Assembly: GCA_016193335.1 (NCBI GenBank)
Contig: JACPSK010000001.1
Span: 279,424 to 343,423 of the forward strand
Direction: 5' to 3'
Source of the DNA: Candidatus Magasanikiibacteriota bacterium
GTDB lineage: Bacteria > Patescibacteriota > Patescibacteriia > Magasanikbacterales > UBA922
Length of the DNA stretch: 64,000 bases
How positions within the stretch are numbered: position 1 is the first letter of the stretch; every line of letters begins with the position of its first letter. Shown piece after piece: positions 251 to 54,228 of the stretch. The notes below the pieces were generated by a model that saw only the letters and a list, made by a program, of their open reading frames with translations, was not told the origin of the DNA and did no database searches. The position numbers were made by a program, and so were the translations under genes.

Positions 251-258
251 CATAAATT

Positions 259-444: not shown

Positions 445-504
445 AAATTAACTCCGCTTGTTTTAGCGGAGTTTTTTTGTTGGAAAAAATGAGTTTGTAA
501 TTAC

Positions 505-15158: not shown

Positions 15159-15179
15159 AGTATAAGATAATTATAGATG

Positions 15180-16199
15180 CTAATTGCCCGTTTGCAAAAG
15201 ACCCGCGCCTTTGGGGTTATACCCTTTTATTACTTCGAGTCCGTCTCTAAAACCGTCTCCGTCCGTGTCCGCGTTGAGCGGATCTGTACCCCAAATTTCC
15301 ACTTCAGCGGAATCACTTAACGCGTCATTGTCTGTATCAAAACTCCGAATGCTGGTTCCATAATTCGGTTCTTCGCTGTCTTCCAGACCGTCTCCGTCTT
15401 GATCGTTTGAAATGTCCAATTCAGCCGGAGGGATTTGCACAAGCCCACCAAGCAAACCCGCGCTTACCATACCGCCAAGACTCTGCAATGTCTCATTCGC
15501 CGTGTTTGCCGAAGCTTGCAAGGCGGCTCCCTTTTCCGCATCCATTCTCAGCGCAGAAGCAAGAAATTCGTTTCTTTTCTGAATATGCAAATCTATGTCT
15601 GACAAAAATCTTTTAAAAAGCGTTTCATCCTGAAAAGCTCCTGTCCATCTATTGCTCGTGCTTTGGACTTTGCGGATAAAGGCGTTCGCGGATGCCATGG
15701 CTTTCGCGGCCCCTTCATAATCTTTATTTTGCCTTACCATGAGAGAGGCAAGTTCCATGCTCTCTTGAGCATATTTCAAGGCCTTCTGAGCCTTGTCAAC
15801 CGGATTGAAGGTAAAAAATAAGTTGGCTTTTTTTACCACATCCCCCAGATATTGGCCTGCCCGTGAGGGTACGTTTTGTGGAGATTCAACCTCTATAATC
15901 TGAAAAGTCCGAGAAGCGTCACCGCCAGTCGTCACCAGAACCAAGCTACCACCTCCCACGCTGTCTTCTGCCTGTGCATTGCCTGAGAGAAGAAGCCCGA
16001 CAAAAACAAGTACAGCCATACAGAATCTGAAAGTATTCTTAATGTTTCCCCGCGGGTCTCCGTTCGCAATTTTGCCGGAACAGAAAAAAAAGAAAGAGGG
16101 ATGGGACGAAAAAACGGCCCCAGAATGTGAATTAAGGGTTTGCTCTACATTTAACGAAAAAATATCAGATCTCTGAATCATAGACACAGTATAGCACAT
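15180..16199 (-). CDS. Secreted/anchored protein with helical N-domain and C-terminal TSP3-like DxDxDG repeats ending GYNPKGAG. True start probably at internal Met (~16019)
   Basis: 339 aa as called. Signal-like MAVLVFVGLLLSGNAQA begins at aa 61. C-terminal DISNDQDGDGLEDSEEPNYGTSIRSFDTDNDALSDSAEVEIWGTDPLNADTDGDGFRDGLEVIKGYNPKGAG. Confidence 0.5.
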   Translation of the reverse strand: MCYTVSMIQRSDIFSLNVEQTLNSHSGAVFSSHPSFFFFCSGKIANGDPRGNIKNTFRFCMAVLVFVGLLLSGNAQAEDSVGGGSLVLVTTGGDASRTFQIIEVESPQNVPSRAGQYLGDVVKKANLFFTFNPVDKAQKALKYAQESMELASLMVRQNKDYEGAAKAMASANAFIRKVQSTSNRWTGAFQDETLFKRFLSDIDLHIQKRNEFLASALRMDAEKGAALQASANTANETLQSLGGMVSAGLLGGLVQIPPAELDISNDQDGDGLEDSEEPNYGTSIRSFDTDNDALSDSAEVEIWGTDPLNADTDGDGFRDGLEVIKGYNPKGAGLLQTGN

Positions 16200-19200: not shown

Positions 19201-22200
19201 ATTTGTAAGCAAAATTCCGGCTCCATCCAAGTCTACATATTTTGGACAGTCTACTGATGCATTTAAGCAGGCTATGCCCGGGCTGAGGACGCAAGACCCT
19301 TCTTTTTGAGCGATATTCCCTATCTTTGAATACAAAAGCTGCCCCGGCGGATCGCATTCTTCCGCAGGACCCACGATTCCATTCCCGCAAGTTTCGTCAA
19401 AAGGATTCACGGGCAGAGGTAAGGCGGACTGACACCATTGTTCATCAGTAAAAGACTGAGTATCTATGAGGCCGCTTACGATTTCATCGTCAAGATTGAA
19501 AAATTCCAGATTTCCATGCAACACATAGCCTTGAGTGTCCTTTTGATATTCATACTCATACACGCTCGAAAAAGCCGGACACATGTACAGTGACTTGCTT
19601 TCATTCCAACAAGTATTGGGGTCCTGCAAGACGCAAGAATCATTTTCACCGGGGCAATCTTGATCTGAAGCGCAACCCAGAAAAACGCCTTGCTCTTCGG
19701 AACTGCCGCCCAAACACAATCCGCAAGAAGACCAACGGTTGATAGGATCCACCGGCAAACCACCCACCGAGGCGGCCAAAGTAGCACTCCAGGAAGGCCA
19801 TTTTGAGACCGTGTAACCCGGGACGAAAGTGCCGGACTTAAGATCTCCTTTAAAAGTCGGCAGACCTTCATTGGTGCTGAAATGGGTATTTATGTTTTTG
19901 AGAGCTTGCTGAATGCCGGGCAAACGCGCCCAATCTCTGAAAAACTTTGTTTTTGCGTTGGAACAAACACCGCTCGTCGTCGGGAGACCTTGGGCATCAA
20001 CCAGAGGCGAACCGCCGGCATCTCTGCAGTCAAAATCCGTTTCACAGGTTTTATCGGTTATATCATTGGCGTCTTCGCCAAAACGAATATCAAAAGATCC
20101 GTCTGCCATGCAATATTTGTGATCGCTCAAATTTGTATTGAACTCAAGTGAAGATACGAGCTGTTCCAATACGTCTTTTGTAGAAGAATCAGCGTCCGGA
20201 TTGATACTCAATAAATATATGTTATTAAATATGTCGCTTCCCGCTCCGTCCTCCACGAAATTCAAGGCGTTGACATAATAATTGGTATTGTCGCTGAGAG
20301 CTTCATAATTCGCGACGTTTTTCTCTTGCATAGTCCCCAAATCTTCAAATTTTTCAGCGTACCAGGCGCCCAAGGATTTCGCTTTCCCTTCTTCATCCAT
20401 GTTTTTAAAAATTTGCAGTCCGACCACATCTTTATTTTCCGGTTTATCATTGAAAAAGAGAATTTTGCGCAAAACATCTTGAGCCAACAATTTTTTGCCT
20501 TCATCCACTTCAAAAGAAATATCAACGCAAGAATCCGTCACTTTCCAAGCGACAGAAGCGTTAACGCAACTTTCATTCTGAGCCTGGTCACAATCCGCGC
20601 TTGCGGAGCAAGATATATATGTTGAACCATAAAGCGGCGGATATTGTATATTCCCGTTCGCGTCCGTTTTTCTGCAAAATTTTTCCGTGGGCAATGACGT
20701 CAACTTGCAACCATTTGTTTTTAACTCGACGGCGCTCAATTCCAGCTTGCACTCAGGAGTATACATAGGATAGCCCGGACTCGTGTTGACAGCGGGAAGA
20801 TTATACAAAGGAACGCATTGGCTGTCTTCCAAGCAAGAAGTTCCGGGTGCCAGCAAACAATTCCCCGGAACTTTAATTTGGACGTCTTGTTCATTTTGGA
20901 TCTCAAATATATTGTTCAAAAACGGCAAGTCGTCCGAGGTGTCACCGGCGTTACCGGCGTCCGCGCAATAACTCATGCTAAAATTGTACTTCTCGTCTTT
21001 CCACGGCGACCATGAACCATCGGCTTCAAAAGCCGGCCAAGGGTTTTCACAAAAATTCGCGGTCAAATCCATGATTTCGGTAAATTTAAAGCCCTCTTGG
21101 CTGTCTTCGCCCTTGTCGGTTATGATTTCAGCCGCGACAATACCATTGATATGGCCCTCCACGTCTTTGGAGCTAATCGTATTGTCGGGTTTGTTGATAT
21201 CCGGAATATCAAAAATGATATTGTTCACCGGATCCCATTTCCAAACCCAATCATAGACATCTTTAATGGGCACGATAAACTGTCCGTTCGCGCTCTCCGC
21301 TTTTACATTGAAATCCTTTCCTTGGCCGGGTTTATTGAACAAATAGGAATCCGGATCCACTTGAATATCTTTTATCTTGCAAATTTCATTTCCTGTTTTG
21401 AAAACCCAAATATCATCTCGAACCAGCAAGAAAGAATCCGCACTTTTAATGCCCACCCCGTCAATATCTCGTATGCCGGTTAAGCCACCATTCAAGAGGA
21501 CGCCATAAATACTGTTTTCATCCAAAAGCTTTCCTATATATATGGAAACAAGAGAAGCTTTAAGCGGCGTCTCACCGGCTACTGTTATTGTTTTGGCTTC
21601 AAAAGAAACCGGGATTTCACCCGCGCACCAGGTTTGTATATCGGTTAAATCTTTGATTTCAAAATAAGAAAGCGCGAAAGCTATCTTATTGAACAGCATC
21701 ACGAAAAAGTCTTTTATTTGTTTCCACATTTGATAAAAAAATCCGCCGTCGCTCTTGAGAACCAAAGTATTTATACCCATGGCATCCTGAACTTTTTCAG
21801 TAATGTCGTATCCGCCCGAACTTGCACAGTCATAGCCGGCCTCGGGATGTGCTTTTACTATGACTATATTATTATTGAGCGAGTCAACTTCAATTTCTTT
21901 GTTAAAACGCGCTTCTATATATGTGTTTCTGCATACGGCATTGTCAGGATCTCCGATCCCTGCTTGACCGGGAGGGTACTCTTCATATCTCAAAGGCCGA
22001 AGAGCACAGCAAGAATTATAAGCCACACCATAGAGATTGCCCCCATTCCCCCCGTTCACTACGCAATCATTATATTGTTCACTGACATCCTGAACTTTAA
22101 ATTCGGTGTACCCGCATTGAAGCGTATAATCTCCTGAACCGGAAGCATCATTGGGGATGCCAGGATTGCCATCTAACTTCACAGTGATGTCCGTGTTTTG

Positions 22201-25200
22201 CTTTCCATCCGTGACTGTGCCTTTCCCTATGGCGGTCACTACCTGCACCGGGCTACTGCTCGTAAAGTTGAAATTCAAAGTTTCCGCCGCTTTCTCGCAT
22301 TGACCATACTCTCCAAGACCAACTTTTCCTCCTGTTGCAAGTCCGTCGCCGCAAATTGATGAAGAAAAATATTTGGGTGAAGAACCAAGGAGCTGACATT
22401 CATCAGAGCAGCCTTCTAAACCTTTTTGACAACGGAAACCATTTTGTTGCGCGCTTGAATATTCGGGTATATTGGTGGAACAAATGTTTCCTTGGAGAAG
22501 ACAACGGGATCCACAGGCCGCTTTCGCCGCGTTTGTCTCTATCATAACATTTTCAGCGTAGTTACCGGCCACGTACACTTTGTTATTAATGACTTCGCAT
22601 TCTTCTCCATCCTCTATAACCGCATTGCCACAGATACTGAGGGATTCTTGACAGGCTTCTGCTTCTTCTTTGCTTTTGTTTGTTTTTTGTTCGCACCAGT
22701 AAGTAGCCAGCTGGGTGCCTATGTGTAAGCAGGTATCAGTACAAAATATATTTGACTGAGATTTATCCGTAGCGTCTTCGTAACTCAAGGCCATGTCACA
22801 GGCCTCGCCAAGACCCACCTCTCCGTCCCCGCACCACGATTGCCCCACCAACTCTGAATTGAACTGGCTGTAAGGCAGAGAACCTGTCAGCGCAGCGCCT
22901 TCTGGCGTGCTGGAACTGAATAGACAGTGCGTATCGCAGACACCCTCAGCCCATTTCAAGGTTCCGTCAGCGTTCTTTTCATTCAAATCACAATCTTCAC
23001 CCGGATCTTTTACGCCATTCCCGCAGAGAGGAAATGTTAATAAGACCGCGTTCGATAAATCACTGCCTTTCGGCAAACATAAAGGAGAACAAAAATCAGA
23101 CCATCCGAAACCGGTATGAAAATTGCTCACTGAAGCGACACTATTCCCATCCAGTTCATCTTTGTCTTCCGGGGTATACCAATCATACCCATAGTCCCAT
23201 TTATTCAATTTTTGTCCGTATTTGCTACATTCGTTTGGAGAACTGTAAGGAACAACGCCGTATTTTGTCTTCTCTCCTATGTTATAGGCAGTAAATGGAT
23301 CCGGTTCTACTTTGAGATCATTGGCCGCGCAAGGCGTGGCATCATTTTTTGTCTTAAATATCCATTCAAAAGGCTGGAGAGCTTTCCCTTGTTTAAAACT
23401 TCCATCCCCATTGATGAAATCAATGGAACGAATGGCAGAACTGAGACTCACCTTGTAATAGGTATTTTTGTCCAGAGAATCCGGATCCACCACCAATTTT
23501 AATTTGTTACTGCTATCAATATCATAAGCAGTGTTTGATATCTGCGTGGGATTGACGCAATTCGCGTTGTCACATTTGAACAAAACGAAACCCGCCTCAT
23601 AGGTGGACGGATCCATGTGTCTGTTGAAATGCGCGGCAATACTCGCGTTGATGCAAGATTCTGAACAATTTGGTTCCCAATAGATAACTTTCGGATCCCC
23701 AAGTTGGATATTAAGCAGACTGTAAGGCGACAAAAGCGTAGTAAGAGCTCCGGCCCCTTCTGTGGCTTCTTTGATAACAATTTCAGCCTCTGCTTCGATA
23801 TGAACAGGGGTAATGGCTGTATCTTCTTTTGCTCTGGCGATCCCTCTCGTATCTGTGTATTGAGGCGGATTTGGCCAATTATGAGCCGTAGCTTTGACAA
23901 GATCAGAACTGTCCCACACCCAACCTTTGCCGTCCACCGGAAGGACCGAACATTCCTGATCTCCATACCCGTTGATGAAATAATGCAAAGGATTAGTCGG
24001 AACCGCGAATATATCTTCCATATCTTGAACCGGATACTTGGGGTCCTGAACAGTACCCAGTTTGTCGGTGCTGTATTGAATGGGATTAACACCGGCATTG
24101 CTCAATACGCATAATTTATCATTGGTTTTGAAAGCGAAACAATAGGCAGTGCCTTCGCCGCAGGGTCTGGTTTCCTTGAGTGAACCGCTCTGGATCACCG
24201 ATTCGCCGAGAAGCTGAACGGTTTCCTGTGATTTGATATCTTTGGAAAGTTCAACATTGTACCAAGTATTGGGCGATAAATACGTCTCAGGGCTGTCATT
24301 TTCTTTTATAATCAAGATCTCATTCTCCAATTTCAAATCAAGGTTTGTTAGCTGTTCTTTTTTTGCGGCGCAATCCATGGCTCCGTCTTCAGCAGTATCG
24401 CAGACATAGACCTTCACATTATTGGAAGTGAGGGTGCCCGTATCCATGGACATACTGAAACGAACCGCGATACTCGCGTTTTTGCAGGAAGCTTCTCCCA
24501 ATTTCAGATTCTGTTCCCAAGGAGTTGGAGATGGAAATTCCTGCTGAATGTCAAGTTTATTCCAATTCGCCACATTACAATCCTCAATCACATAAGGACG
24601 GTTGGGTATGAGGCCCGTGGTAAAACGCCATACATATCCCGCGTCACGGGTTTCTCCGGGGCACACATAACCATTACCTATCCATTGACCAGCCCCCGGT
24701 CCTTCGGTACAGCAGGTATATCCGGTACCCGGAGCTGTGGCTCCCGTTTCTCTGCAATCTGAAACAGTGTAGAGCACTCCGTTGCTTACTTGCTCTGAAT
24801 CTGATTTTACTTTTATAAGTCCGCTCTGCATGGAAAGACCGGTACCCACATCTACAGGAAGCAATGTCCTAACCAAGGTATCAACAGACTGCAAAATGAC
24901 ATTTTCGCCGCCGAATTTGTCTTGCTCAGAATTCAGCCAGGTGTTGAGCGTATCGGCTTGAGCCCCGTTCTGCCAATAATACACCGTTGGATCGGTGGAA
25001 AAACCATAACCTCTGATATACAAACCCTCGCTCTCTTTGGGCAAAGGAGCCGGGCCTTTATTCGGGTCGAGCAAACAGATGCTGGGTAAAGGCAGACCTT
25101 CATATACTCCAAAAGTATCCAGGCCATTTGAATGCAAAGGCCCGTCGCCTCTTTGAACAATAAGATAATAATTCCCCGCGATCATAGAATCCGGAACCTG

Positions 25201-28200
25201 CACTATAACCTGTGTGTCAGACCAGGTGTCTTTGCAATACGCAGGAAGAGTGGCGTTGGCTTGTGCACAGGTTCCGTCATCCGGACTGCATTCATGACCC
25301 TCTTCGCTTGTAAGATATACGATGCCCGTACTTTCTCCAAAATTCTTTCCAAAAATCGTTATGTAGCTCCCCGGAGTGCTTGACACCGGATCTATGCTTT
25401 CAATGATTGGAGCAAGATCTTTCAAATCTCCGGCCAAAACTTGAAAAGGAACCGCGTTGCTTGTTTTCCCTCCCACTTGCACGGTAACCGGGACCTTGCC
25501 CACGGCAGTATTAAAAGGAACGAGGGACTGTAAGAAATTATCAGTCCATTTATCTTGGTCTACTTGGGCTATGACGCCGCCAAAATCCAGGTTACTCGTC
25601 GCACCCTTTATATTGCCAAAGGATTTGCCATAGGCCTGAATGTCGGTATTCGGCAAAGCGGAAGAAAATTTGTATGAATCTGCCGTAACTACGGCGCAGA
25701 GACCGGGCCGAACGGTTTCATTTTTTATGAAATACCCCGGCTTGCCGCCTGTAATCTGGTCATATTCTTGTTTTGTCAAGTAGCCTTTCGCGGCCGCGTC
25801 CGGGTCTGGGACAGGGTTAGGCCCAAATGCATCGTCGCTTAAATCAAACAAACTCGGGTCGTCTCCCCTGCTCACGCGTATGGCGCTTATCTGGCCCAGG
25901 GCTCCATAGGATCCAAAAACTCCGGTCTGATTGAATAAAGGATTGCTTTCCTTGCTTATTTGAATCGGCGCTTTGCCGTTGACAATATTTACCGGATTTT
26001 GATCGAAAAAACGCAGATACAAGCTAGGCTCAAGAGAAAGGGCCGCGTCTTTGTAATGATCCAAACCTGCCAGAGGATCGTACAAAGCCGCTACCTGGCT
26101 ATCTGACAATGGGGATTCGTACATCAAAAATTCATCTATACTGCCCTTAAAATACAGAGGGGTGAATATAGAACGTTTGCCCAAGTTAATCCCATTTACA
26201 TTTGATTGGGTCAGAGAGCCGGCGCTGAGAGCTGTGGTCTTGAGGACTTTCCCATCAAGATACAAAGCTATTTGTCCGAGAACACTGTCAAAACTTGCCA
26301 CTACATGGTGAAAAACACTGGGAGTAGCAAAGGGAGATGAGATACGTCTGTATTTTGACACGGTCGGATCGAACATTTCGAAATTTATATGCTTCGACAA
26401 ATCAGGGAGCGTATTGAGATACAAACTCCAGCCTCCTCCCGCTTGGCTGAGCCCGCCTCCGGCTACGACTTCAAGACCAGTCTTGCTCCCCTCTCCTCTT
26501 ATCCAAGCGCTTACTGAAAAAGAAGCGGGCGCCTGCTTATATATAGGACTCGGGTTTATACTCAAAGAATCATCCACGCCATCAAAAGCAATGGCGTTAC
26601 CTTTTGGGGCGGGGTTGGGAACTTCCACCACTACAAAACTATCCTGCCAGGTGCTCTTGATCACTTCACTGCACTCCGCCAATTTTGCTTCAATCCATTC
26701 GCTATCTTCATATTCTCCGCTGTCATTTAAATCGGTGGCAAATTCAACTTTCCCGATTTTGGAACCGAAATAATTACCCAATATACTTATCCAATTCCCG
26801 GAAGCCCCGTCCTGCGGAACAATATCCGTGATTTGAGGATATTGCACGCAGGTGTTGTTCACACACTTTAGTCCGGCAGAGCAAGGAGTTGATTCATCAC
26901 AGTAGGCTCCTTCTTCCGCCCCACAAGGTCCGCCGGCGTCAACGTCAGTCTCCCCTTTATCTTTGTCAAATTCTCCGTTGGCGCAATATCCGGGATACAC
27001 GAAAAAATAGGTCTGTTTTTCTGAACTGTTGTGGTCTATATCAAACACCGCGGCTGTAACAATATACTTTGTTTTCGCCGGAATGCCTGAGCCCAAAAAT
27101 AAAGGATAGCTGAAGGTAAAAGGGTTTGCCGATTCATTTTTGTAAGGACCGTCGTAAATGTCGAACACATCTGCCCCATTCTCCGAAGCAATATACAGAT
27201 GGACGTATCCAAGACCAGAATCATCTTCAACGGTAAATTCTATCGGATATGTATTGTTGCTATAGAGCTTGATGCCAGGCTCAACGCTCGGGTTCCCGTC
27301 TGGCAATACAAACTGTATGCCCGTTTTATAAACAGGCGCGGTTTTATCATTAATCTTCTGGTTAACCCCGAAATCGACTTCTTTGAATGTCTCCACGCCG
27401 CAGACAGTACCCTCTTCCAATTTCTCGCCATTAGTCGATTCTATTTCTTTGGGAACTTCAACAAGATATTTGCTATCTGAAAGCGGCAGGCAAGTTTGTC
27501 CTTCTGTTTTGTTTTCATCCGCGCAGTTCTGCTCTTCTCCGGCGTACTTATATCGAGCCTGAATTACTTTTTTACTGTCATCAACAAAGCTGATATCAAA
27601 TAAAGTTGTTATGTCTTCTTTGGTTAATTCATTGTTCCCTCTGTATATTTTCAGAGCGTCTCCCGGAGCAGTGCCCAAGGCCTTACTAAAGACCGCGCGG
27701 ATCACGATATTATTCATGTCTGTGACATCTTGGCTCGGCGTAATGCTTTTCACCACAAAGTGCTGTTCAAAACAAGAACCATAGCCACCCCCGCCGCCAT
27801 TACACTCGGCAACCGTTTGGCAGCCCCCGCCCCCGCCTCCTCCACCTGCGCCAGTGGCCTCCGCGAGCTTGTCCAAGACAAATTGGGTGATGGCGAGAGA
27901 AGACAAAATAATAGCAAGGCCTATAGTGCCATTTATCAAAATTTTCCGCGCTTGCAAAATCTTGTCTTCACTGCCTCCGGCGGTCATGTACACATATCCG
28001 CCGTACAATATAATACCAAGGGCTATGACCCCCAAAAGCCCAAGAAAAATTCGGATTATTTTTGCCACGGTAACGCGAATATCCTGGACTTCCAAATTCA
28101 CGGTTTCGTTTATCTTGGCCACGCCAAAGGTATCGCCTTGCGCCATGGCAAAATCGCTCCACGCAAAAGAAAATAGACCATAAAATAGAAACACGAAAAA

Positions 28201-28272
28201 ACATGGTAGGCCTATTTTGTACAATATTGTGCGAAGAGCTTTGTTCATAGGTAAAACGGAAAGTTTATTCAC
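16201..28272 (-). CDS. Giant (4023 aa) cell-surface adhesin-like protein. N-terminal signal plus two-helix membrane hairpin (TrbC/VirB2-pilin-like), then LamG/ConA-like, IPT-like, Ig-like and many Myxococcus-type Cys-rich (CGDG...ECDDGN..GDGC) repeats
   Basis: Single uninterrupted 12,072-nt ORF whose start overlaps the upstream gene stop by 8 nt. Motifs read from the translation: IIRIFLGLLGVIALGIILYGGYVYMTAGGSEDK...IGLAIILSSLAI, Gly8 linker, LamG block (SFSVSAWIRG...LYLDGKVL), and tandem CGNGKKEGTEACDDGNKKDGDGCSSSC-type repeats (~18150-18420). Confidence 0.8.
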   Translation of the reverse strand: MNKLSVLPMNKALRTILYKIGLPCFFVFLFYGLFSFAWSDFAMAQGDTFGVAKINETVNLEVQDIRVTVAKIIRIFLGLLGVIALGIILYGGYVYMTAGGSEDKILQARKILINGTIGLAIILSSLAITQFVLDKLAEATGAGGGGGGGGCQTVAECNGGGGGYGSCFEQHFVVKSITPSQDVTDMNNIVIRAVFSKALGTAPGDALKIYRGNNELTKEDITTLFDISFVDDSKKVIQARYKYAGEEQNCADENKTEGQTCLPLSDSKYLVEVPKEIESTNGEKLEEGTVCGVETFKEVDFGVNQKINDKTAPVYKTGIQFVLPDGNPSVEPGIKLYSNNTYPIEFTVEDDSGLGYVHLYIASENGADVFDIYDGPYKNESANPFTFSYPLFLGSGIPAKTKYIVTAAVFDIDHNSSEKQTYFFVYPGYCANGEFDKDKGETDVDAGGPCGAEEGAYCDESTPCSAGLKCVNNTCVQYPQITDIVPQDGASGNWISILGNYFGSKIGKVEFATDLNDSGEYEDSEWIEAKLAECSEVIKSTWQDSFVVVEVPNPAPKGNAIAFDGVDDSLSINPSPIYKQAPASFSVSAWIRGEGSKTGLEVVAGGGLSQAGGGWSLYLNTLPDLSKHINFEMFDPTVSKYRRISSPFATPSVFHHVVASFDSVLGQIALYLDGKVLKTTALSAGSLTQSNVNGINLGKRSIFTPLYFKGSIDEFLMYESPLSDSQVAALYDPLAGLDHYKDAALSLEPSLYLRFFDQNPVNIVNGKAPIQISKESNPLFNQTGVFGSYGALGQISAIRVSRGDDPSLFDLSDDAFGPNPVPDPDAAAKGYLTKQEYDQITGGKPGYFIKNETVRPGLCAVVTADSYKFSSALPNTDIQAYGKSFGNIKGATSNLDFGGVIAQVDQDKWTDNFLQSLVPFNTAVGKVPVTVQVGGKTSNAVPFQVLAGDLKDLAPIIESIDPVSSTPGSYITIFGKNFGESTGIVYLTSEEGHECSPDDGTCAQANATLPAYCKDTWSDTQVIVQVPDSMIAGNYYLIVQRGDGPLHSNGLDTFGVYEGLPLPSICLLDPNKGPAPLPKESEGLYIRGYGFSTDPTVYYWQNGAQADTLNTWLNSEQDKFGGENVILQSVDTLVRTLLPVDVGTGLSMQSGLIKVKSDSEQVSNGVLYTVSDCRETGATAPGTGYTCCTEGPGAGQWIGNGYVCPGETRDAGYVWRFTTGLIPNRPYVIEDCNVANWNKLDIQQEFPSPTPWEQNLKLGEASCKNASIAVRFSMSMDTGTLTSNNVKVYVCDTAEDGAMDCAAKKEQLTNLDLKLENEILIIKENDSPETYLSPNTWYNVELSKDIKSQETVQLLGESVIQSGSLKETRPCGEGTAYCFAFKTNDKLCVLSNAGVNPIQYSTDKLGTVQDPKYPVQDMEDIFAVPTNPLHYFINGYGDQECSVLPVDGKGWVWDSSDLVKATAHNWPNPPQYTDTRGIARAKEDTAITPVHIEAEAEIVIKEATEGAGALTTLLSPYSLLNIQLGDPKVIYWEPNCSESCINASIAAHFNRHMDPSTYEAGFVLFKCDNANCVNPTQISNTAYDIDSSNKLKLVVDPDSLDKNTYYKVSLSSAIRSIDFINGDGSFKQGKALQPFEWIFKTKNDATPCAANDLKVEPDPFTAYNIGEKTKYGVVPYSSPNECSKYGQKLNKWDYGYDWYTPEDKDELDGNSVASVSNFHTGFGWSDFCSPLCLPKGSDLSNAVLLTFPLCGNGVKDPGEDCDLNEKNADGTLKWAEGVCDTHCLFSSSTPEGAALTGSLPYSQFNSELVGQSWCGDGEVGLGEACDMALSYEDATDKSQSNIFCTDTCLHIGTQLATYWCEQKTNKSKEEAEACQESLSICGNAVIEDGEECEVINNKVYVAGNYAENVMIETNAAKAACGSRCLLQGNICSTNIPEYSSAQQNGFRCQKGLEGCSDECQLLGSSPKYFSSSICGDGLATGGKVGLGEYGQCEKAAETLNFNFTSSSPVQVVTAIGKGTVTDGKQNTDITVKLDGNPGIPNDASGSGDYTLQCGYTEFKVQDVSEQYNDCVVNGGNGGNLYGVAYNSCCALRPLRYEEYPPGQAGIGDPDNAVCRNTYIEARFNKEIEVDSLNNNIVIVKAHPEAGYDCASSGGYDITEKVQDAMGINTLVLKSDGGFFYQMWKQIKDFFVMLFNKIAFALSYFEIKDLTDIQTWCAGEIPVSFEAKTITVAGETPLKASLVSIYIGKLLDENSIYGVLLNGGLTGIRDIDGVGIKSADSFLLVRDDIWVFKTGNEICKIKDIQVDPDSYLFNKPGQGKDFNVKAESANGQFIVPIKDVYDWVWKWDPVNNIIFDIPDINKPDNTISSKDVEGHINGIVAAEIITDKGEDSQEGFKFTEIMDLTANFCENPWPAFEADGSWSPWKDEKYNFSMSYCADAGNAGDTSDDLPFLNNIFEIQNEQDVQIKVPGNCLLAPGTSCLEDSQCVPLYNLPAVNTSPGYPMYTPECKLELSAVELKTNGCKLTSLPTEKFCRKTDANGNIQYPPLYGSTYISCSASADCDQAQNESCVNASVAWKVTDSCVDISFEVDEGKKLLAQDVLRKILFFNDKPENKDVVGLQIFKNMDEEGKAKSLGAWYAEKFEDLGTMQEKNVANYEALSDNTNYYVNALNFVEDGAGSDIFNNIYLLSINPDADSSTKDVLEQLVSSLEFNTNLSDHKYCMADGSFDIRFGEDANDITDKTCETDFDCRDAGGSPLVDAQGLPTTSGVCSNAKTKFFRDWARLPGIQQALKNINTHFSTNEGLPTFKGDLKSGTFVPGYTVSKWPSWSATLAASVGGLPVDPINRWSSCGLCLGGSSEEQGVFLGCASDQDCPGENDSCVLQDPNTCWNESKSLYMCPAFSSVYEYEYQKDTQGYVLHGNLEFFNLDDEIVSGLIDTQSFTDEQWCQSALPLPVNPFDETCGNGIVGPAEECDPPGQLLYSKIGNIAQKEGSCVLSPGIACLNASVDCPKYVDLDGAGILLTNKEGVCINSKSSNAQEIIYDQLVSTWEPGGLKLVAFGCSSDSECRTASYYDATSFGIVDLDNANPNILNQDGFNQYVAINQQTLTCAKSVTWEFDQCVGAIQGGLGQCPTGNFAKSICSQDCKTWEYGLCTASYTCGNGVVESGEKCDDGALNGTYGHCADSKSALSDGSKVGACQGLHPAYCGDGLVQAGKEVCDIAEAKYAQKPGYCKYANTLCGAVNECNFNLVCTNGACYNSNGKALGLSCSQNSDCVDTCLKDPSYHFSSEFSCAANCKAVGNYCGDGSIQHEYEACDDGNKTNGDGCNTYCEVEEVTLLCGNGKKEGTEACDDGNKKDGDGCSSSCTVEIAKAECGNGKIEQDIGEACDLGKDKNGVKCSPVYGKSCNYCSLDCKNILTIDSGEFCGDGLISGPEQCEPFSSTAILIPQTLAEVQDICLAETQVQTCENDCEDHFQSPWKYGKETLDGYICKNTANPQNRIRVAYGHAPEGVPDTYYGFPIGGINSGVNVSFSSYTKWDQYTDPAKELCNKLYGTSAQPLPFELIPWEDNPDADAFMEKVLVSDVQCKQDCVAAYDSCVAEKSQANSKQLVCDAGPDYTNKGSWVCSSDCLGEPENKCVACGVKTFGPEPLLALLNPMVDPLTGGDTQSLGSGLNWAKLADYDLSLGRKQLKTEGGLGAFFSLEPDDVSLITVKTPSNPFFITSESNIEANLLCKEEYALSFNRLGIQTATGISGSMLQYKAKKKHFFDYPVNGEKEKIVNELVVSPAVPEGVVRVVLRWTDEENKKGGIFSGGLYSSRLAKFSGGDPTKALIRYADAKSAVNPLQKLCKFMVKTDKTVQTDEGSVSEEYWMPAPLNGSGCTGTNGVFVHEIAGAAKTFIQSFTIDPSIIVTAQPHSYGFFVEAVDDVLGSYTNSNLQVDVYSYHEGQVPLYSLYQPDYSFNIKDAADSSSNSLAPYWHVFNFLVSPSADGTYSYGIEPVETIETDICQIKENMPLPPEEKCSL

Positions 28273-30433
28273 CTGAAACAGGGCTTACTTCTTCTGAAGA
28301 CAAAAGGTCCAGACAAACAGGGGTACTCGGCTGAGCCGTAACCGAATCATCCGTGGTAACGCAAGCAGTGTCAACCGTTCCGGTCTCAAGCACTTCGTCT
28401 TCATTTAATTGTTGAAGCTTTACATCAAAACAATCGGCCCCGGTTCCAGTGATCGGGTTCCCTTCCGTGTCTTCTTTATATGCGCATACTATGGATTCTC
28501 CTTTGGCGCCAGACTTGGGCCCCCTGCCCGGATACAAACAATTTCCATTTGAAGAAAGCACGTTTGAATCCGCATAAGGAAAATAATAAAAATCCTGATC
28601 ATTGGGACCAAAAACCCTGTGCAAAAGACTGGCTACGGTAGAGTTCGGATAATCAGGCACCGCAAGTTTCAAAGGATTATCCAGATCTTCAGATTCAGGT
28701 TTTGACCAAAATTCGAGAACTGTTCCCGGAATAGGGGTTACATTATCAGGAAACTCGCGCATTCTAATATTGTAAAGAGTTCCGAAAAGCATTCTTCTAT
28801 TGAAATACAAAGTAACCGGTTCGTCTTTGACCACGTTTTCTTTGTCAACCCCGGGAAAAACACGTTGGAGGTAGGGCGAACTCCGGTCTATTTTATTGAG
28901 GACGACAAAAGACCACCAATAGTTGTCTTCTTGAGCTCCTTCAGCCCGTCCTTTTGCCACTGCGTTTGGGGTTGGCCCGTCCAAAGCATTGCCAGACATA
29001 TCCATGACGCCGCTGAATGGTTTGCTTTCAAATGATTTGTTGTTTGTCGGATTAATTAATTCAGCCGAATGAACCACAATGCTATATTGATTTTTCGAGG
29101 TATCAGTACAAGCAGTTTCTCCGCAATCAAGGGGCAAACAATACAGCGGATTGCCGCAACTGTTTTGTCCGCAGACTTCGTCAGAATAAAATTCCACTGT
29201 TTTGTATCCATTGCTTATCTTCCATTCACCGGTTGGTACAGCCTCGCCCGCTCCATCCAATGTATTGAAAACCAAATTGTTGTGTGGGACCGCGGCTGTT
29301 GTCAAACCCTGTACCATAGTGGGATCCACGGCTTCATTGAAATGAATTTGGACATACTCATTTCGAGCCGTTTCAGTATTGGGATCTGGATTCACGGATA
29401 CCACAAAAGGAGGAGATTGGTCCAAAGTGCCGTCAGTTTGAAAATCCCACGTATAGTATTCGGCGCCAAGAAGGTCGCCGAATACCCCAATTTGTTTGCC
29501 GTTAACCGGTGTTTTTTTGAGAATACTGTTGTTCAATTTCACCGTATGCCATACTTCTTCGGCTTCTTTGCCCAGATGATCAAAGGGCTTTATAACTAAA
29601 GTATATACATTTCGAGCGTCAGCGTCCTCGTACAAAGCTTGGGCTGAGGCGTTTTTGAGCTGTTTGATTTCGGCCTGGGTATCGAAAATTCCCACGGCTT
29701 CTGTTTTGAGATGATCACAATCTTTCTCATAACTGAAATTGGGACTTTCTGTAAGGCAATCTCCATAATACGGCTCAGAAAAAACGTCATCACAAAGAAC
29801 CGGAACAGCTTCAGATCCCCAGCAGGTTTTATTAAAATTGTCCATCACTGACGCAGGGTCAATGGGTTCAAAAAAAGTAATCGCTATCTTTGTATTCCGC
29901 TTTACTCCTGTTTGGTCCCTAAACGGATAATGATCTTTCACCACCTTGCCCAAAGCCCCGCTTCCGGTGAAAGTATCAAATACCGGAGCTCCTTCGCTCT
30001 GTTTCGCGGAAGGATTTATGGCTTCGGTAAGCGCGTTGATGACCCATTGCGCTATAGCAAGAGAAGACAAAATAATGGCAAGCCCGATAACCGCGTTCCT
30101 TAAAATGGTTTTGCCGGCCGTGACTTTTTCTTCATTTCCCGCCGCGGTCATAATAGTATAACCGGCGTAGATGATAAGAATCACGGCAATAAGGCCAAGT
30201 AAACCGAGAACCGCCCGTATAATGCGCGCGGCTATCACTCGTATGTCAGCATTCGCCAATTGCACTTCTTGGCCAAATTGGCCAAGACCAAAGGTGTCTG
30301 ATTGGGCGGACACAGTGCCTCCTCCATACGCCAAACTCAGGCCCAAAAAAAGAAAAACCGCGACTCCAACTATAACGGCATGGAGCGCAGTTTTGTTACT
30401 GTACTTTCTGAATGTGAATATCCTTGGCAGCAT
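28265..30433 (-). CDS. 722-aa surface protein paralogous over its N-terminal ~135 aa (signal plus membrane hairpin module) to the giant protein, followed by Ig-like/beta-rich extracellular domains
   Basis: Conserved N-terminal region: DTFGLGQFGQEVQLANADIRVIAARIIRAVLGLLGLIAVILIIYAGYTIMTAAGNEEK...IGLAIILSSLAIAQWV versus the giant protein's DTFGVAKINETVNLEVQDIRVTVAKIIRIFLGLLGVIALGIILYGGYVYMTAGGSEDK...IGLAIILSSLAITQFV. Confidence 0.7.
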   Translation of the reverse strand: MLPRIFTFRKYSNKTALHAVIVGVAVFLFLGLSLAYGGGTVSAQSDTFGLGQFGQEVQLANADIRVIAARIIRAVLGLLGLIAVILIIYAGYTIMTAAGNEEKVTAGKTILRNAVIGLAIILSSLAIAQWVINALTEAINPSAKQSEGAPVFDTFTGSGALGKVVKDHYPFRDQTGVKRNTKIAITFFEPIDPASVMDNFNKTCWGSEAVPVLCDDVFSEPYYGDCLTESPNFSYEKDCDHLKTEAVGIFDTQAEIKQLKNASAQALYEDADARNVYTLVIKPFDHLGKEAEEVWHTVKLNNSILKKTPVNGKQIGVFGDLLGAEYYTWDFQTDGTLDQSPPFVVSVNPDPNTETARNEYVQIHFNEAVDPTMVQGLTTAAVPHNNLVFNTLDGAGEAVPTGEWKISNGYKTVEFYSDEVCGQNSCGNPLYCLPLDCGETACTDTSKNQYSIVVHSAELINPTNNKSFESKPFSGVMDMSGNALDGPTPNAVAKGRAEGAQEDNYWWSFVVLNKIDRSSPYLQRVFPGVDKENVVKDEPVTLYFNRRMLFGTLYNIRMREFPDNVTPIPGTVLEFWSKPESEDLDNPLKLAVPDYPNSTVASLLHRVFGPNDQDFYYFPYADSNVLSSNGNCLYPGRGPKSGAKGESIVCAYKEDTEGNPITGTGADCFDVKLQQLNEDEVLETGTVDTACVTTDDSVTAQPSTPVCLDLLSSEEVSPVSGE

Positions 30434-32881: not shown

Positions 32882-33481
32882 TTACAAATTGTATTCCGGA
32901 AGATTGCCGAATGAAGTGAGACGACTGAATGGCCAGCCTCTGAACACGACTCTCCCAACGATATCATTCACAGAAATAGGGCCGAAACGACGAGAATCAT
33001 AGCTCGCGTCTCTGTTGTCGCCAAGTACAAAGTACTGATCCGGACCCAAGGTAATCGAAACTGAACCGGGGGTTTGTTCTTCGAGATACGATTCTTGGAT
33101 AATAACACCCTGCGGGTATTCATTGTTATAAACCACAACTTTGTTCCCCTCCACTTTTATCCGTTCTCCGGGCAAACCTATGATACGCTTCAGATAATTG
33201 TCCGAAGCCACGGGCGCTCTGAAGACAATGATTTCTCCCCGCTCCGGCGCGCGGAAACGATAGCTGATTTCGTCTATGATCAAATAATCACGTTCATAAA
33301 AAGTGGGTTCCATCGATTGTCCTTTTACATAAAAGGGCTTGAACAAAAAGTAGCGTATAAGAACGATGGTAACGCCGGCGAGCAAAGTTACTTTGATGAG
33401 CTCCAAAAAAAAGAGCCCCAATTTATTCAGAAAACCGCGCTCCGTAATATTCACTTGTTCGCGATCATCTTCTTTTTTCAT
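32882..33481 (-). CDS. lepB: Signal peptidase I
   Basis: 199 aa. N-terminal TM, Ser box GQSMEPTF, GDNRDASYDSRRFGPI box. Confidence 0.85.
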   Translation of the reverse strand: MKKEDDREQVNITERGFLNKLGLFFLELIKVTLLAGVTIVLIRYFLFKPFYVKGQSMEPTFYERDYLIIDEISYRFRAPERGEIIVFRAPVASDNYLKRIIGLPGERIKVEGNKVVVYNNEYPQGVIIQESYLEEQTPGSVSITLGPDQYFVLGDNRDASYDSRRFGPISVNDIVGRVVFRGWPFSRLTSFGNLPEYNL

Positions 33482-45352: not shown

Positions 45353-46003
45353 ATGTTAAAAACTCGTCACCTCATGTTTATTTTCATACCTGCCACGCTT
45401 TTGGCCGCCGTTTTTCTTTTCGTCCGCGTGGTGCAATATCAGCCGCTCTTTCCAAAAGAAGACAAAACCGAAAATCCGGAAAGCAAAACGCTTTCAGTGC
45501 CCATATTTCCCGATGACCCAATTCTGGGAAACAAAAAAGCCGGCACAGGAATTGTGGCTTTCGAAGATTTTGGCTGTGAAGCTTGCAAAGAGCAAACGGC
45601 TATTTTTGAAGAATTGGTAAACAAATATCCTGGCGCTATAAGAATTATCTGGAAAGGCTTGCCGGTAACACAATTCCCCTACCCCACCGAGCTCGCCGAG
45701 AGCTACGGATATTGCGCGAATAAACAAGGAATGTTCGATATTTTCAAAACCTATGCTTTCAGTAACAGCGGCAATCTTTCACAAACAAGTCTTGATATCA
45801 TTTCAGAGGAAATAAAACTGAACAAAGAAAAACTGACCGAGTGTCTGGAATCTCCCGCTACCGCAAACCACATAACGCAGACAAAACAAATTGCCCGCAT
45901 ACTCAATATTCAGGCAGTACCGGCCATATTTGTGAATGGAAAGCAAATTGATCCGCCAAAGAGTCTGGAAGGCTGGGAGACGCTTTTGGGGTTATCACAA
46001 TAA
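45353..46003 (+). CDS. DsbA-like thiol:disulfide oxidoreductase (thioredoxin fold, CxxC)
   Basis: 216 aa. N-terminal TM, active site FGCEACKEQ, DsbA-type helical insertion. Confidence 0.7.
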   Translation: MLKTRHLMFIFIPATLLAAVFLFVRVVQYQPLFPKEDKTENPESKTLSVPIFPDDPILGNKKAGTGIVAFEDFGCEACKEQTAIFEELVNKYPGAIRIIWKGLPVTQFPYPTELAESYGYCANKQGMFDIFKTYAFSNSGNLSQTSLDIISEEIKLNKEKLTECLESPATANHITQTKQIARILNIQAVPAIFVNGKQIDPPKSLEGWETLLGLSQ

Positions 46004-54206: not shown

Positions 54207-54228
54207 GAAGTGATATTTATGGATTTGC

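What the first reader, a model, noticed from the sequence alone, without database searches (positions are those of the whole stretch)
27873..28077. One two-helix membrane module (TrbC/VirB2-pilin-like) used as the anchor in four different large exported proteins
The same ~65-aa module occurs in four proteins. In the 4023-aa giant it is N-terminal (27873-28077): AKIIRIFLGLLGVIALGIILYGGYVYMTAGGSEDKILQARKILINGTIGLAIILSSLAI. In the 722-aa protein it is N-terminal (30034-30241): ARIIRAVLGLLGLIAVILIIYAGYTIMTAAGNEEKVTAGKTILRNAVIGLAIILSSLAI. It is internal in the 812-aa protein (47372-47585) and the 787-aa protein (50831-51041). The consensus is hydrophobic helix, G-G, short G/K/E-rich loop with EEK, K/R, then IGLxIxLSS helix. 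The shape (long signal, two hydrophobic helices, small Gly-rich turn) recalls conjugative T-pilins of the TrbC/VirB2 family. No VirB4/VirD4-type ATPase is in this window. The module may instead be a lineage-specific membrane-insertion or display device that carries cargo from a nuclease up to a 4000-aa adhesin.
Basis: inference. Interest (0 to 1): 0.75.

Follow-up and report, generated by a model that had tools for sequence, protein, structure and literature searches.

The report
Pilin-derived membrane hairpin carrying large cargo
In this ultrasmall Magasanikbacteria (CPR) genome, the small two-helix pilin of the lineage's type IV secretion system has been grafted onto two giant adhesin-like proteins and two secreted hydrolases, apparently as a carrier that places them outside the cell; this design is conserved across the lineage but I found no paper describing it.

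Summary
Four proteins carry a signal peptide plus a two-helix hydrophobic hairpin at the stated coordinates (the first two on the minus strand), and there are no further copies in the window.

Profile searches assign the hairpin to Pfam PF18895 (T4SS_pilin, the VirB2-like pilin of Patescibacteria). The giant and the 722-aa protein score above the Pfam threshold. The 787- and 812-aa proteins are linked through profiles and their wider family.

There are two designs:
- **Complete pilin plus binding domains.** An N-terminal pilin, a Gly/Cys-rich linker and Ig/lectin domains make up the 722-aa and 4023-aa proteins. This tandem gene pair occurs in 50 of 79 related loci, usually near lepB and hisS.
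- **Cassette plus enzymes.** A Cys-rich knot, a conserved linker and the hairpin are flanked by swappable enzymes. The cassette hits 14,276 cluster representatives. Cargo in 84 members includes amidases, DD-peptidases, transglycosylases, lipases and nucleases.

No VirB4/VirD4 ATPase was found in the window, in 10 kb on either side, or near any of the 79 related loci.

Most likely the hairpin is a pilin-derived carrier that displays cargo on the cell surface. Whether it also enters a pilus is untested.

The source is a Candidatus Magasanikbacteria genome assembled from a metagenome. I rate it a new variant of a known kind, interest about 0.6.

The parts
16201..28272 (-). Giant 4023-aa protein: N-terminal pilin domain, Gly-rich linker, then Laminin_G_3, TIG, Big_5 and DUF4215 domains (154 Cys after residue 139).
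   Evidence: Relatives align over 2,500-3,000 residues.
28141..28272 (-). Predicted Sec signal peptide of the giant (aa 1-44, ...FAMA|QGDTFG). The true start may be the ATG at 28248.
   Evidence: Read from the sequence. The A|Q site is conserved in 49 aligned giants.
27856..28077 (-). Pilin hairpin of the giant (aa 66-139).
   Evidence: PF18895 at 32.2 bits for the fragment and 27.3 full-length, against a gathering score of 26.6.
28265..30433 (-). 722-aa protein: complete N-terminal pilin, linker, then a Big_5-containing body. It lies immediately upstream of the giant.
   Evidence: Full-length orthologues in relatives. Tandem pair in 50 of 79 loci.
30305..30433 (-). Predicted signal peptide of the 722-aa protein (aa 1-43, ...TVSA|QSDTFG).
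   Evidence: Sequence reading. AF2 helix 13-36. Conserved A|Q site.
30017..30244 (-). Pilin hairpin of the 722-aa protein (aa 64-139; helices 64-95 and 101-139).
   Evidence: PF18895 at 34.4 bits. AF2 pLDDT 89-97 over most of the hairpin. Up to 71% identical to free 102-167-aa pilins.
32882..33481 (-). Signal peptidase I (LepB), syntenic with the pilin-fusion pair.
   Evidence: Peptidase_S26, E = 2.7e-44. Homologue present in 49 of 79 related loci.
14184..16199 (-). Two exported proteins with DUF5667 and TSP3_bac repeats directly downstream of the giant. They may belong to the same operon.
   Evidence: Homologues found in only 4-5 related loci, because the giants fill the 10-kb flanks.
46010..48448 (+). 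812-aa protein: signal peptide (aa 1-28), Exo_endo_phos domain (aa 37-277), Cys-rich knot (about aa 312-395), conserved linker, hairpin, then an unassigned Cys-rich C-terminal domain (aa 545-812).
   Evidence: 100% identical to MBI2989840.1, Candidatus Magasanikbacteria.
47372..47596 (+). Internal pilin-like hairpin of the 812-aa protein (aa 455-529).
   Evidence: PF18895 at only 12.5 bits, but hhalign, the family census and AF2 helices with pLDDT 84-95 support it.
49550..51913 (+). 787-aa protein: signal peptide (aa 1-35), unassigned N-terminal domain with an AFSYG motif (aa 36-280), Cys-rich knot (aa 285-367), linker, hairpin, then a VanY DD-peptidase domain (aa 608-744).
   Evidence: In a cluster (at least 90% identity) with a 787-aa Candidatus Magasanikbacteria protein (MBI2989842.1) that NCBI names a D-alanyl-D-alanine carboxypeptidase family protein.
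50831..51055 (+). Internal pilin-like hairpin of the 787-aa protein (aa 428-502).
   Evidence: PF18895 at 24.1 bits, E = 3.8e-5. hhalign.
45353..46003 (+). DsbA-like thioredoxin immediately upstream of the 812-aa gene, at a conserved position. It would oxidise the Cys-rich exported parts.
   Evidence: Thioredoxin_4, E = 1.5e-21. Same position in L085, L088 and L089.
43959..45206 (+). Membrane-anchored beta-propeller-like protein (415 aa) at a conserved position upstream of dsbA.
   Evidence: Weak SGL hit in the window protein; faint PD40 hit in the L085 orthologue. Conserved in L085, L088 and L089.
48464..49546 (+). Second membrane-anchored beta-propeller-like protein (360 aa), between the two hydrolase genes.
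   Evidence: A 345-aa counterpart occupies this position in L085.
46944..47319 (+). 376-nt stretch (Cys-rich knot plus linker) that is 94.9% identical to 50400-50775, with sharp borders, inside otherwise diverged paralogues.

Best explanation
**What it is**
The module is the VirB2-like T4SS pilin of Patescibacteria (Pfam PF18895), re-used as a carrier for larger proteins.

**How it would work**
1. The Sec pathway exports the protein. Signal peptidase I cuts at a conserved A-x-A|Q site; a lepB gene sits two genes upstream of the 722/giant pair.
2. The two hydrophobic helices insert as a hairpin. The short G/N/E/K loop faces the cytoplasm and both ends face outward.
3. Everything fused to the hairpin therefore sits on the outer face of the single membrane.

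**The two designs**
- In the 722-aa and 4023-aa proteins, a complete pilin is followed by a flexible Gly/Cys-rich linker and chains of Ig-like and lectin domains. These look like host-binding adhesins.
- In the 812- and 787-aa proteins, a derived cassette (disulfide knot, conserved linker, hairpin) carries interchangeable enzymes on one or both sides. Here they are an EEP nuclease or phosphatase plus an unassigned Cys-rich domain, and an unassigned domain (possibly an esterase) plus a VanY DD-peptidase. These would act on the host envelope or on scavenged polymers.

**Shown versus inferred**
Homology, architecture, conservation and synteny are shown. Topology and surface display are inferred. 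I take the hairpin to stay in the cell membrane, possibly associating with free pilins there, rather than to be built into a pilus.
For: **Homology to the pilin**
- PF18895 hits.
- The 120 listed closest homologues of the 722 module are free-standing 102-167-aa Patescibacteria pilins; 116 of them carry PF18895. They share the signal peptide and most share the short D-x-x-G motif after it.
- hhalign between the pilin profile and the cassette.
- 47 of 84 cassette relatives hit PF18895.

**Hairpin structure**
- AF2 predicts two long helices with pLDDT about 89-97 in 722 and 84-95 in 812.

**Cargo lies outside on both sides**
- Each protein has an N-terminal signal peptide.
- The flanking domains hold 4-13 Cys each and the hairpins none.
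- A DsbA gene is adjacent.
- VanY and amidase cargo act on peptidoglycan.

**Carrier logic**
- The giant and 722 share only residues 26-139.
- 812 and 787 share only the 244-aa cassette.
- Cargo domains are shuffled among family members.
- Cargo differs at the same conserved locus in different genomes.

**Not tied to a secretion machine**
- No VirB4/VirD4 in 84 kb around the genes.
- In the 79 related loci, only 17 large non-pilin ORFs carry a Walker A motif. All 10 that were scanned are housekeeping or surface proteins.
- The loci sit among housekeeping genes: lepB-hisS-yqeY and clpB...radA-recG.
Against: - The hairpin is the best-conserved part of the 722 family: top-residue frequency 0.68 against 0.40 for the cargo. 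It keeps pilin motifs (LGLLG, WMTAGGNEEK, IGLAIILS) that a plain membrane anchor would not need. This points to contacts with other pilins or with a machine. The loci were chosen by pilin similarity, which inflates the contrast.
- At least one related genome assembly carries both the fused pair and a free-pilin array (JBDRSF01: L012 and L077). That fits a major/minor subunit arrangement.
- Topology was not tested, and the charge distribution around the helices is ambiguous.
- The rest of the source genome could not be searched for a T4SS.
Confidence: 0.5

Rival explanations
1. True modular T4SS pilins. A VirB4-type machine encoded elsewhere extracts the hairpin from the membrane and polymerises it with free small pilins. 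The giant adhesins and the hydrolases then ride on, or cap, a conjugative-type pilus that reaches the host cell. This would supply the adhesin that was not detected in Patescibacteria T4SS.
For: - The fused domains are up to 71% identical to free pilins.
- The hairpin is the most conserved region of the 722 family.
- Flexible Gly-rich linkers follow the domain.
- Free-pilin arrays coexist with the fused pair in a related genome assembly.
- In F and T pili both pilin termini face the outside of the filament (my own knowledge), so a C-terminal graft is geometrically possible.
- PMC12102498 reports that no PrgB-like adhesins were detected in Patescibacteria T4SS.
- Modular type IV pilins set a precedent (PMC8179133).
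Against: - No VirB4/VirD4 lies within 10 kb of any of the 79 pilin loci examined, nor in 84 kb around the window genes.
- A 3,900-aa graft could be tolerated only as a rare or tip subunit.
- In 812 and 787 both ends of the hairpin carry bulky domains.
- No Patescibacteria T4SS pilus has yet been observed; PMC12857230 speaks only of a 'potential to elaborate conjugative pili'.
Confidence: 0.3
2. Export leader that is later removed. The pilin domain only guides membrane insertion, and the cargo is cut off in the linker and released as a soluble or wall-bound protein.
For: - Low-complexity Gly/Cys-rich linkers of variable length follow the hairpin.
- Conjugative pilins such as RP4 TrbC are C-terminally processed (my own knowledge).
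Against: - No conserved cleavage motif appears in the linkers of 40 giants inspected.
- A cleavable Sec signal peptide already suffices for export.
- In 812 and 787 the N-terminal cargo would still need the hairpin as its only anchor.
Confidence: 0.08
3. The hairpin of the 812/787 family is a convergent helical hairpin unrelated to pilins. In that case only the giant and 722 carry a pilin domain.
For: - The 812 protein scores 12.5 bits (E = 0.16) against PF18895.
- 722 vs 812 is not significant against shuffles (z = 2.2).
- The Foldseek search cannot discriminate helical hairpins.
Against: - The 787 protein scores E = 3.8e-5 against PF18895.
- hhalign gives E = 6.9e-6 across the whole hairpin.
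- 47 of 84 family members hit PF18895 at E <= 1e-3, the best at 1.2e-8.
- The motifs are shared: G-G at the end of helix 1, an E-E-K/R loop, and IGL at the start of helix 2.
Confidence: 0.05
4. Holin-like or pore-forming hairpin that permeabilises a membrane to let the attached hydrolase reach its substrate.
For: The combination of a two-TM hairpin with a peptidoglycan hydrolase superficially recalls phage holin/endolysin pairs.
Against: - No holin family matched in PHROGs at E <= 1; the few weak hits (E >= 0.11) were to families of unknown function.
- The proteins carry Sec signal peptides.
- The same domain heads adhesin-like giants.
- The genes sit in conserved chromosomal housekeeping loci, not in prophages.
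Confidence: 0.02

Closest known systems
Patescibacteria VirB2-like pilins (Pfam PF18895 T4SS_pilin); pilin arrays of Southlakia epibionticum and others (PMC10633639, PMC12102498)
   Same: Same domain family, same signal peptide and short motif after it, same two-helix hairpin, same phylum.
   Different: Known members are free-standing proteins of about 100-170 aa, often in arrays and often near virB4. Here the domain is fused to 600-4,000 aa of cargo (N-terminal, internal and, in relatives, C-terminal), and no T4SS gene is nearby.
TrbC/VirB2 conjugative T-pilins (Pfam PF04956)
   Same: Signal peptide, helical hairpin and short loop. Some close homologues of the module hit both PF18895 and PF04956.
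   Different: The window proteins do not match PF04956 at E <= 1. Nothing similar was found on 72,556 plasmids by tblastn. No pilin cyclisation/maturation peptidase or T4SS operon is present.
Modular type IV pilins (S. sanguinis PilB/PilC; PMC8179133)
   Same: Same design principle: a small pilin module with a functional module (vWA, ConA-like lectin, peptidase) grafted on through a short linker. Also frequent in CPR lineages.
   Different: An unrelated pilin class. Type IV pilins have a class III signal peptide cut by a prepilin peptidase and a single N-terminal helix. No such motif is present here.
VirB1-like cell-wall hydrolases of Gram-positive T4SS (PrgK, TraG of pIP501, CwlT, TcpG)
   Same: Membrane-tethered, multi-domain peptidoglycan hydrolases (transglycosylase, CHAP/NlpC, M23) in monoderm bacteria.
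   Different: Those use a simple N-terminal TM segment and are encoded inside T4SS operons. Here the tether is a pilin-like hairpin with a Cys-rich knot, the cargo also includes lipases and nucleases, and the locus holds no T4SS genes.
Mbov_0395 family pilin-like conjugal transfer protein of Mycoplasma integrative conjugative elements (NCBIfam NF045849)
   Same: Weak profile match over the whole hairpin (28 bits, E = 1e-6) for the giant and 722.
   Different: The score is below the family cut-off (40 bits), and those are small stand-alone proteins of integrative conjugative elements.
Polymorphic toxin / effector architectures (constant carrier plus variable enzymatic tip; my own knowledge)
   Same: A constant cassette with shuffled enzymatic domains, and different cargo at the same locus in different genomes.
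   Different: No immunity gene or dedicated secretion-system marker was recognised. The cargo is mostly cell-wall hydrolases rather than intracellular toxins.

Membership tests
PF18895 T4SS_pilin (Patescibacteria VirB2-like pilin) | Profile match at or above the Pfam gathering score (26.6 bits) | tested here: met
   Giant: 32.2 bits for the fragment, 27.3 full-length. 722: 34.4 bits. 787: 24.1 and 812: 12.5, both below threshold individually. They are linked by hhalign (E = 6.9e-6) and by 47 of 84 relatives hitting the family.
PF18895 T4SS_pilin (Patescibacteria VirB2-like pilin) | Sec signal peptide followed by two hydrophobic helices joined by a short loop | tested here: met
   A-x-A|Q sites read from the sequence and conserved in orthologues. 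AF2 hairpins. Two hydropathy peaks per copy.
PF18895 T4SS_pilin (Patescibacteria VirB2-like pilin) | Small free-standing protein (about 100-170 aa) | tested here: not met
   The proteins are 722, 787, 812 and 4023 aa. The closest homologues listed are 102-167 aa.
PF18895 T4SS_pilin (Patescibacteria VirB2-like pilin) | Encoded next to virB4 or other T4SS genes | tested here: not met
   None in the window or in 10 kb on either side. None recognised in 79 related loci. The rest of the genome could not be searched.
PF18895 T4SS_pilin (Patescibacteria VirB2-like pilin) | Polymerises into an extracellular pilus | not testable with these tools
   Needs microscopy or filament proteomics.
TrbC/VirB2 (PF04956) | Profile match to PF04956 | tested here: not met
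   No PF04956 hit at E <= 1 for any of the four proteins. 13 of the 120 listed homologues carry a precomputed PF04956 hit alongside PF18895.
TrbC/VirB2 (PF04956) | C-terminal processing or cyclisation by a dedicated peptidase | not testable with these tools
   No pilin-maturation peptidase was recognised among the window genes. The chemistry cannot be inferred from sequence.
Modular type IV pilins (T4P) | Class III signal peptide (G|F/M-T-L-x-E) cut by a prepilin peptidase | tested here: not met
   A regular-expression search of the first 80 residues of all four proteins found none.
Modular type IV pilins (T4P) | [quoted passage not shown] | tested here: met
   Pilin, Gly/Cys linker, then Ig/lectin domains. 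This is analogy only, not membership.
Gram-positive T4SS VirB1-like hydrolases (PrgK/TraG/CwlT) | Peptidoglycan hydrolase domain(s) on a membrane tether | tested here: met
   VanY in 787 scores 26.0 bits against a cut-off of 25. Family cargo in 84 members: Amidase_2 16, VanY/M15_4 12, SLT 4, M23 3, NlpC/P60 2.
Gram-positive T4SS VirB1-like hydrolases (PrgK/TraG/CwlT) | Encoded inside a T4SS operon and required for its assembly | tested here: not met
   The conserved neighbours are clpB, a beta-propeller gene, dsbA, radA and recG.
Phage holins | Match to a holin family | tested here: not met
   PHROGs scan of the four modules: no annotated family at E <= 1.

The most novel reading that the evidence does not exclude
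Patescibacteria of the Magasanikbacteria group build conjugative-type (VirB2-like) filaments whose subunits include 'modular pilins'. Giant adhesins and wall-, lipid- and DNA-degrading enzymes would be covalently grafted onto pilin subunits. The T4SS pilus would then act as an armed tether that binds a host cell and digests its envelope. This would be the T4SS counterpart of modular type IV pilins and would explain both the missing adhesin and the unknown role of the essential Patescibacteria T4SS.
Probability: 0.3. Interest if true: 0.85.

Novelty: new variant of a known kind. Interest (0 to 1): 0.6.

Why it matters
The T4SS and its pilin arrays are essential in the one genetically tractable Patescibacterium, yet their role is unknown. 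The literature reports that no adhesins were detected and few VirB1-type hydrolases (PMC10633639, PMC12102498, PMC12857230).

This work shows that the same pilin domain is covalently joined to conserved giant adhesin-like proteins. It is also joined to a very large family of swappable cell-wall hydrolases, lipases and nucleases.

That gives concrete, testable candidates for how these ultrasmall epibionts hold on to and feed from host cells. It also shows that counts of 'VirB2 homologues' based on PF18895 hits may include proteins that are not simple pilins.

For annotation, NCBI names the 812-aa protein, and a 787-aa cluster mate of the second protein, by their enzyme domain only.

Tried and rejected
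- **Word-index homologue search with the 812/787 cassette** found nothing. The exhaustive HMMER search then found 14,276 representatives, so the first result was a sensitivity artefact. The same tool listed only small pilins for the 722 module. That wrongly suggested fusions are rare; the genome scan showed the opposite.
- **PDB sequence searches** with the pilin profile, the 812 C-terminal domain and the 787 N-terminal domain returned no hits.
- **Foldseek of the AF2 hairpin model against PDB** gave only generic helical hairpins, best E = 1.5. This is uninformative for or against VirB2 similarity.
- **AF2 of the whole 812-aa protein**: only the cassette was confident and the cargo domains had pLDDT below 50. 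No fold search was run on it.
- **tblastn of the module against 72,556 plasmids** gave no match.
- **Holin hypothesis**: no PHROG support.
- **Exact look-ups of the 722-aa and giant proteins** failed, for unknown reasons.
- **Candidate VirB4 genes in related loci** turned out to be FtsH, Mfd, GyrA, ComM-like, EngA, SMC or LamG proteins.
- **Literature**: eight full-text searches found nothing on VirB2-like pilins fused to cargo. The library lacks most subscription journals.
Full report
**Observation**

The four proteins named in the finding exist:
- a 4023-aa ORF at 16201-28272 and a 722-aa ORF at 28265-30433, both on the minus strand;
- an 812-aa ORF at 46010-48448 and a 787-aa ORF at 49550-51913, both on the plus strand.

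The quoted peptides are encoded at the stated coordinates. Shuffles that keep composition show very strong similarity within each pair (z = 29 and z = 40). Across pairs the similarity is weak to moderate (z = 2.2-7.2). An HMM built from the four copies finds no fifth copy in the window. Each copy has two hydropathy peaks 36-43 residues apart.

**Identity of the module**

- Pfam assigns it to PF18895 (T4SS_pilin). Scores are 32.2 bits for the giant's N-terminal fragment (27.3 full-length) and 34.4 for 722, against a gathering score of 26.6. The 787 protein scores 24.1 and 812 scores 12.5.
- NCBIfam gives a sub-threshold match to the Mycoplasma Mbov_0395 pilin-like conjugal transfer family.
- PF04956 (TrbC) is not hit at E <= 1. 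However, 13 of the 120 listed closest homologues carry both PF18895 and PF04956.
- Those 120 homologues of the 722 module are free-standing Patescibacteria proteins of 102-167 aa, and 116 of them carry PF18895. They share a signal peptide, an A-x-A|Q cleavage site, a short D-x-x-G motif and the motifs LGLLG, WMTAAGNEEK and IGLAIILS.
- The first roughly 140 residues of the giant and of 722 are therefore a complete pilin, not just a hairpin.
- AF2 predicts a signal helix and a confident two-helix hairpin, with pLDDT 89-97 over most of it.
- Foldseek against PDB is uninformative for such a simple fold. PHROGs shows no holin relationship.

**The internal copies**

A profile-profile comparison of 34 pilins with the 812/787 cassette gives 84.5% probability (E = 6.9e-6) over the whole hairpin. 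In addition, 47 of 84 relatives of 812/787 hit PF18895. I take the homology as established, though more distant.

**Two designs**

*Design 1: giant and 722.*
- The two proteins resemble each other only over residues 26-139 (54% identity).
- After the pilin comes a Gly- or Cys-rich low-complexity linker, then the cargo. The giant carries Laminin_G_3, TIG, Big_5 and DUF4215. The 722-aa protein carries Big_5.
- A scan of one genome per GTDB species with the pilin alignment returned 588 relatives. The best 79 loci are mostly Candidatus Magasanikbacteria, with Uhrbacteria, Falkowbacteria and Parcubacteria.
- In 50 of these loci a 550-1100-aa protein with an N-terminal pilin domain is immediately followed, on the same strand, by a giant. 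The giants run from 1,750 to more than 3,480 aa and are often cut by the 10-kb flank. They too start with a pilin domain.
- Ten more loci show one such long gene at a contig end. Fifteen loci are arrays of small pilins.
- The 722-aa and giant proteins align with these relatives over nearly their full lengths, so they are conserved orthologues.
- Homologues of lepB (49 loci), hisS (52) and yqeY (26) accompany the pair, as they do in the window.
- The hairpin is the most conserved segment of the 722 family. Its top-residue frequency is 0.68, against 0.40 in the cargo. The loci were selected by pilin similarity, which inflates this contrast.

*Design 2: 812 and 787.*
- The two proteins share a 244-aa central cassette (73% identity).
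- The cassette runs as follows: an 8-Cys knot, a conserved linker (...PxIxIPGLxFS...YLxIPFLGEYIA), the hairpin, and a short NPxLVxF motif.
- AF2 with 84 relatives predicts the cassette with pLDDT 70-97. A short strand on each side of the hairpin is predicted.
- An exhaustive HMMER search of 1.84 billion cluster representatives with the cassette profile gave 14,276 hits at E <= 1e-3. Of these, 2,950 were at <= 1e-10 and 139 at <= 1e-30. Weak hits may include plain pilins.
- Among the best 150, 102 include the Cys-rich part. 144 have more than 150 residues after the cassette, and 31 have cargo on both sides.
- Pfam on 84 members shows this cargo: Amidase_2 (16), VanY/Peptidase_M15_4 (12), Peptidase_C39_2 (6), GDSL lipase (6), SLT (4), Exo_endo_phos (3), M23 (3) and NlpC/P60 (2).
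- Cargo domains recombine freely. One relative, for example, combines the 812 N-terminal EEP domain with both the N- and C-terminal domains of 787.
- The locus is conserved as pgm, clpB, x, a beta-propeller gene, dsbA, the cassette protein, radA and then recG. The cargo at that position differs between genomes: EEP here, GDSL lipase in L088, unknown in L089.
- The window has two cassette genes where three relatives have one.
- A 376-nt stretch of the two genes is 94.9% identical with sharp borders. This indicates recent duplication or gene conversion.

*A third design in relatives.* Twenty-five ORFs of at least 250 aa (up to about 590 aa) have the pilin domain at the C-terminus and sit inside small-pilin arrays. 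Ten were confirmed with Pfam; their N-terminal parts have no Pfam match.

**Source**

- Window 36052-58448 is 100% identical to GCA_964404105.1 contig CAYOIR010000003.1.
- The 812-aa protein is identical to MBI2989840.1 from a Candidatus Magasanikbacteria bacterium, on a 686,675-bp contig.
- NCBI names that protein, and a 787-aa cluster mate of the second one, after their enzyme domains only.

**Link to a T4SS**

- All large ORFs in the window are housekeeping or surface proteins, and none is a VirB4/VirD4 ATPase. Ten kb beyond each end is also housekeeping.
- In the 79 related loci (up to 10 kb of flank on each side), only 17 large non-pilin ORFs carry a Walker A motif.
- The ten of these that were scanned are FtsH, Mfd, GyrA, a Mg-chelatase-like ATPase, EngA, SMC (three), a LamG protein and an amidase. 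The other seven match these in size and motif spacing.
- Several small-pilin arrays lie next to solute-binding protein genes.
- The literature reports VirB2-like pilins near virB4 in 1,135 of 1,948 Patescibacteria assemblies. It also places ABY1-class T4SS loci near radA and recG (PMC12102498). Here radA and recG are present but virB4 is not within 20 genes.
- The rest of the source genome could not be searched.

**Mechanism**

*Shown:* homology to the pilin, the architectures, their conservation and the synteny.

*Inferred:* Sec export and LepB cleavage at the conserved A|Q site, then insertion of the two helices with the short loop inside and both ends outside. Four observations support this:
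- each protein has a signal peptide;
- the domains on both sides are Cys-rich, while the hairpins contain no Cys;
- a DsbA gene is adjacent;
- much of the cargo acts on peptidoglycan.

The cargo types suggest adhesion for the giant and 722. For 812, 787 and their family they suggest degradation of a partner cell's wall, lipids and nucleic acids. This fits organisms that cannot make nucleotides or lipids (PMC10633639, PMC11665869).

Whether the hairpin remains a membrane anchor or is co-assembled with free pilins into a filament is open:
- The lack of T4SS linkage and the size of the cargo favour the anchor (my preferred reading, 0.5).
- The motif-level conservation of the hairpin favours the modular-pilin reading (0.3). 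So does the coexistence of fused and free pilins in one related genome assembly (L012 and L077).

**Comparison with known systems**

The closest family is the Patescibacteria VirB2-like pilin. The closest concept is the modular type IV pilin of Streptococcus sanguinis and many other bacteria (PMC8179133). That is an unrelated pilin class, and no class III signal motif is present here. Gram-positive VirB1-like hydrolases are functional analogues of the 787 family but use a different tether and a different genomic context.

Eight full-text searches found no description of VirB2-like pilins fused to cargo. The sequences themselves are public and partly annotated.

**Verdict**

This is a new variant of a known kind: a known pilin domain used as a general carrier in conserved giant adhesin-like proteins and in a very large family of modular hydrolases. 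Interest is about 0.6. It would be higher if the cargo proves to ride on a T4SS pilus.

Noticed in passing
window 46944-47319 and 50400-50775: A 376-nt segment (Cys-rich knot plus linker of the 812 and 787 genes) is 94.9% identical with sharp borders. The adjacent hairpin-coding DNA is clearly more diverged, and the rest of the genes are unrelated. This points to recent gene conversion or a cassette duplication. Related genomes have a single cassette gene at this locus.
   Followed up: partly
window 41936-43867 (+): A 643-aa protein made almost entirely of K/E/D/Q/P-rich low-complexity sequence, with a C-terminal hydrophobic segment (about aa 520-565) and a coiled-coil tail. It has no significant Pfam family. 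An unannotated gene (179 aa in L088) sits at the same position between clpB and the beta-propeller gene.
   Followed up: no
window 53264-54228 (ORF 53632-54009): A gap of about 960 nt between radA and the IMP dehydrogenase gene holds only an ORF with an odd, Ala/Arg/Gly/Leu/Pro-rich translation (125 aa, GTG start). It has no Pfam hit and no Rfam family. It is called as a gene in the public assembly but looks doubtful.
   Followed up: partly
window 177-1185: An AbiEii-type nucleotidyltransferase toxin gene (505-1185, minus strand) lies next to tRNA-Asp (177-251). No cognate AbiEi antitoxin was recognised among the ORFs examined.
   Followed up: no
window 14184-16199 (-): Two paralogous exported proteins with DUF5667 and bacterial thrombospondin type-3 (calcium-binding) repeats lie directly downstream of the giant gene. 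They may be partners of the giant.
   Followed up: partly
L036, L048, L055, L077, L081 and other small-pilin-array loci: Arrays of 6-14 small PF18895 pilins in related genomes also contain ORFs of 250 to about 590 aa whose pilin domain is at the C-terminus, after an N-terminal region with no Pfam match. Several arrays sit next to SBP_bac_1 solute-binding protein genes rather than T4SS genes.
   Followed up: partly
L020 16748-20353, L022 12377-15862, L074 15953-18277: Where the giant is of the roughly 2,260-aa type, it is followed by another ORF of more than 1,100 aa (cut by the locus end in L020, L022 and L074). The L020 copy was scanned and contains a Laminin_G_3 domain.
   Followed up: no
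L006, L007, L011, L015 and about 30 other loci (accessions CAY..., CAZ..., OZ246405.1): Many records titled 'uncultured Gammaproteobacteria bacterium' carry the Magasanikbacteria-type pilin/giant operon with the lepB-hisS synteny. They are evidently mislabelled Patescibacteria genome assemblies, and the source assembly GCA_964404105.1 belongs to the same accession series.
   Followed up: no
window 28248-28272: The giant ORF's first start codon (GTG at 28272) overlaps the end of the 722-aa gene by 8 nt. An ATG eight codons downstream (28248) would leave a 16-nt spacer instead. Either way the two genes are tightly coupled.
   Followed up: partly
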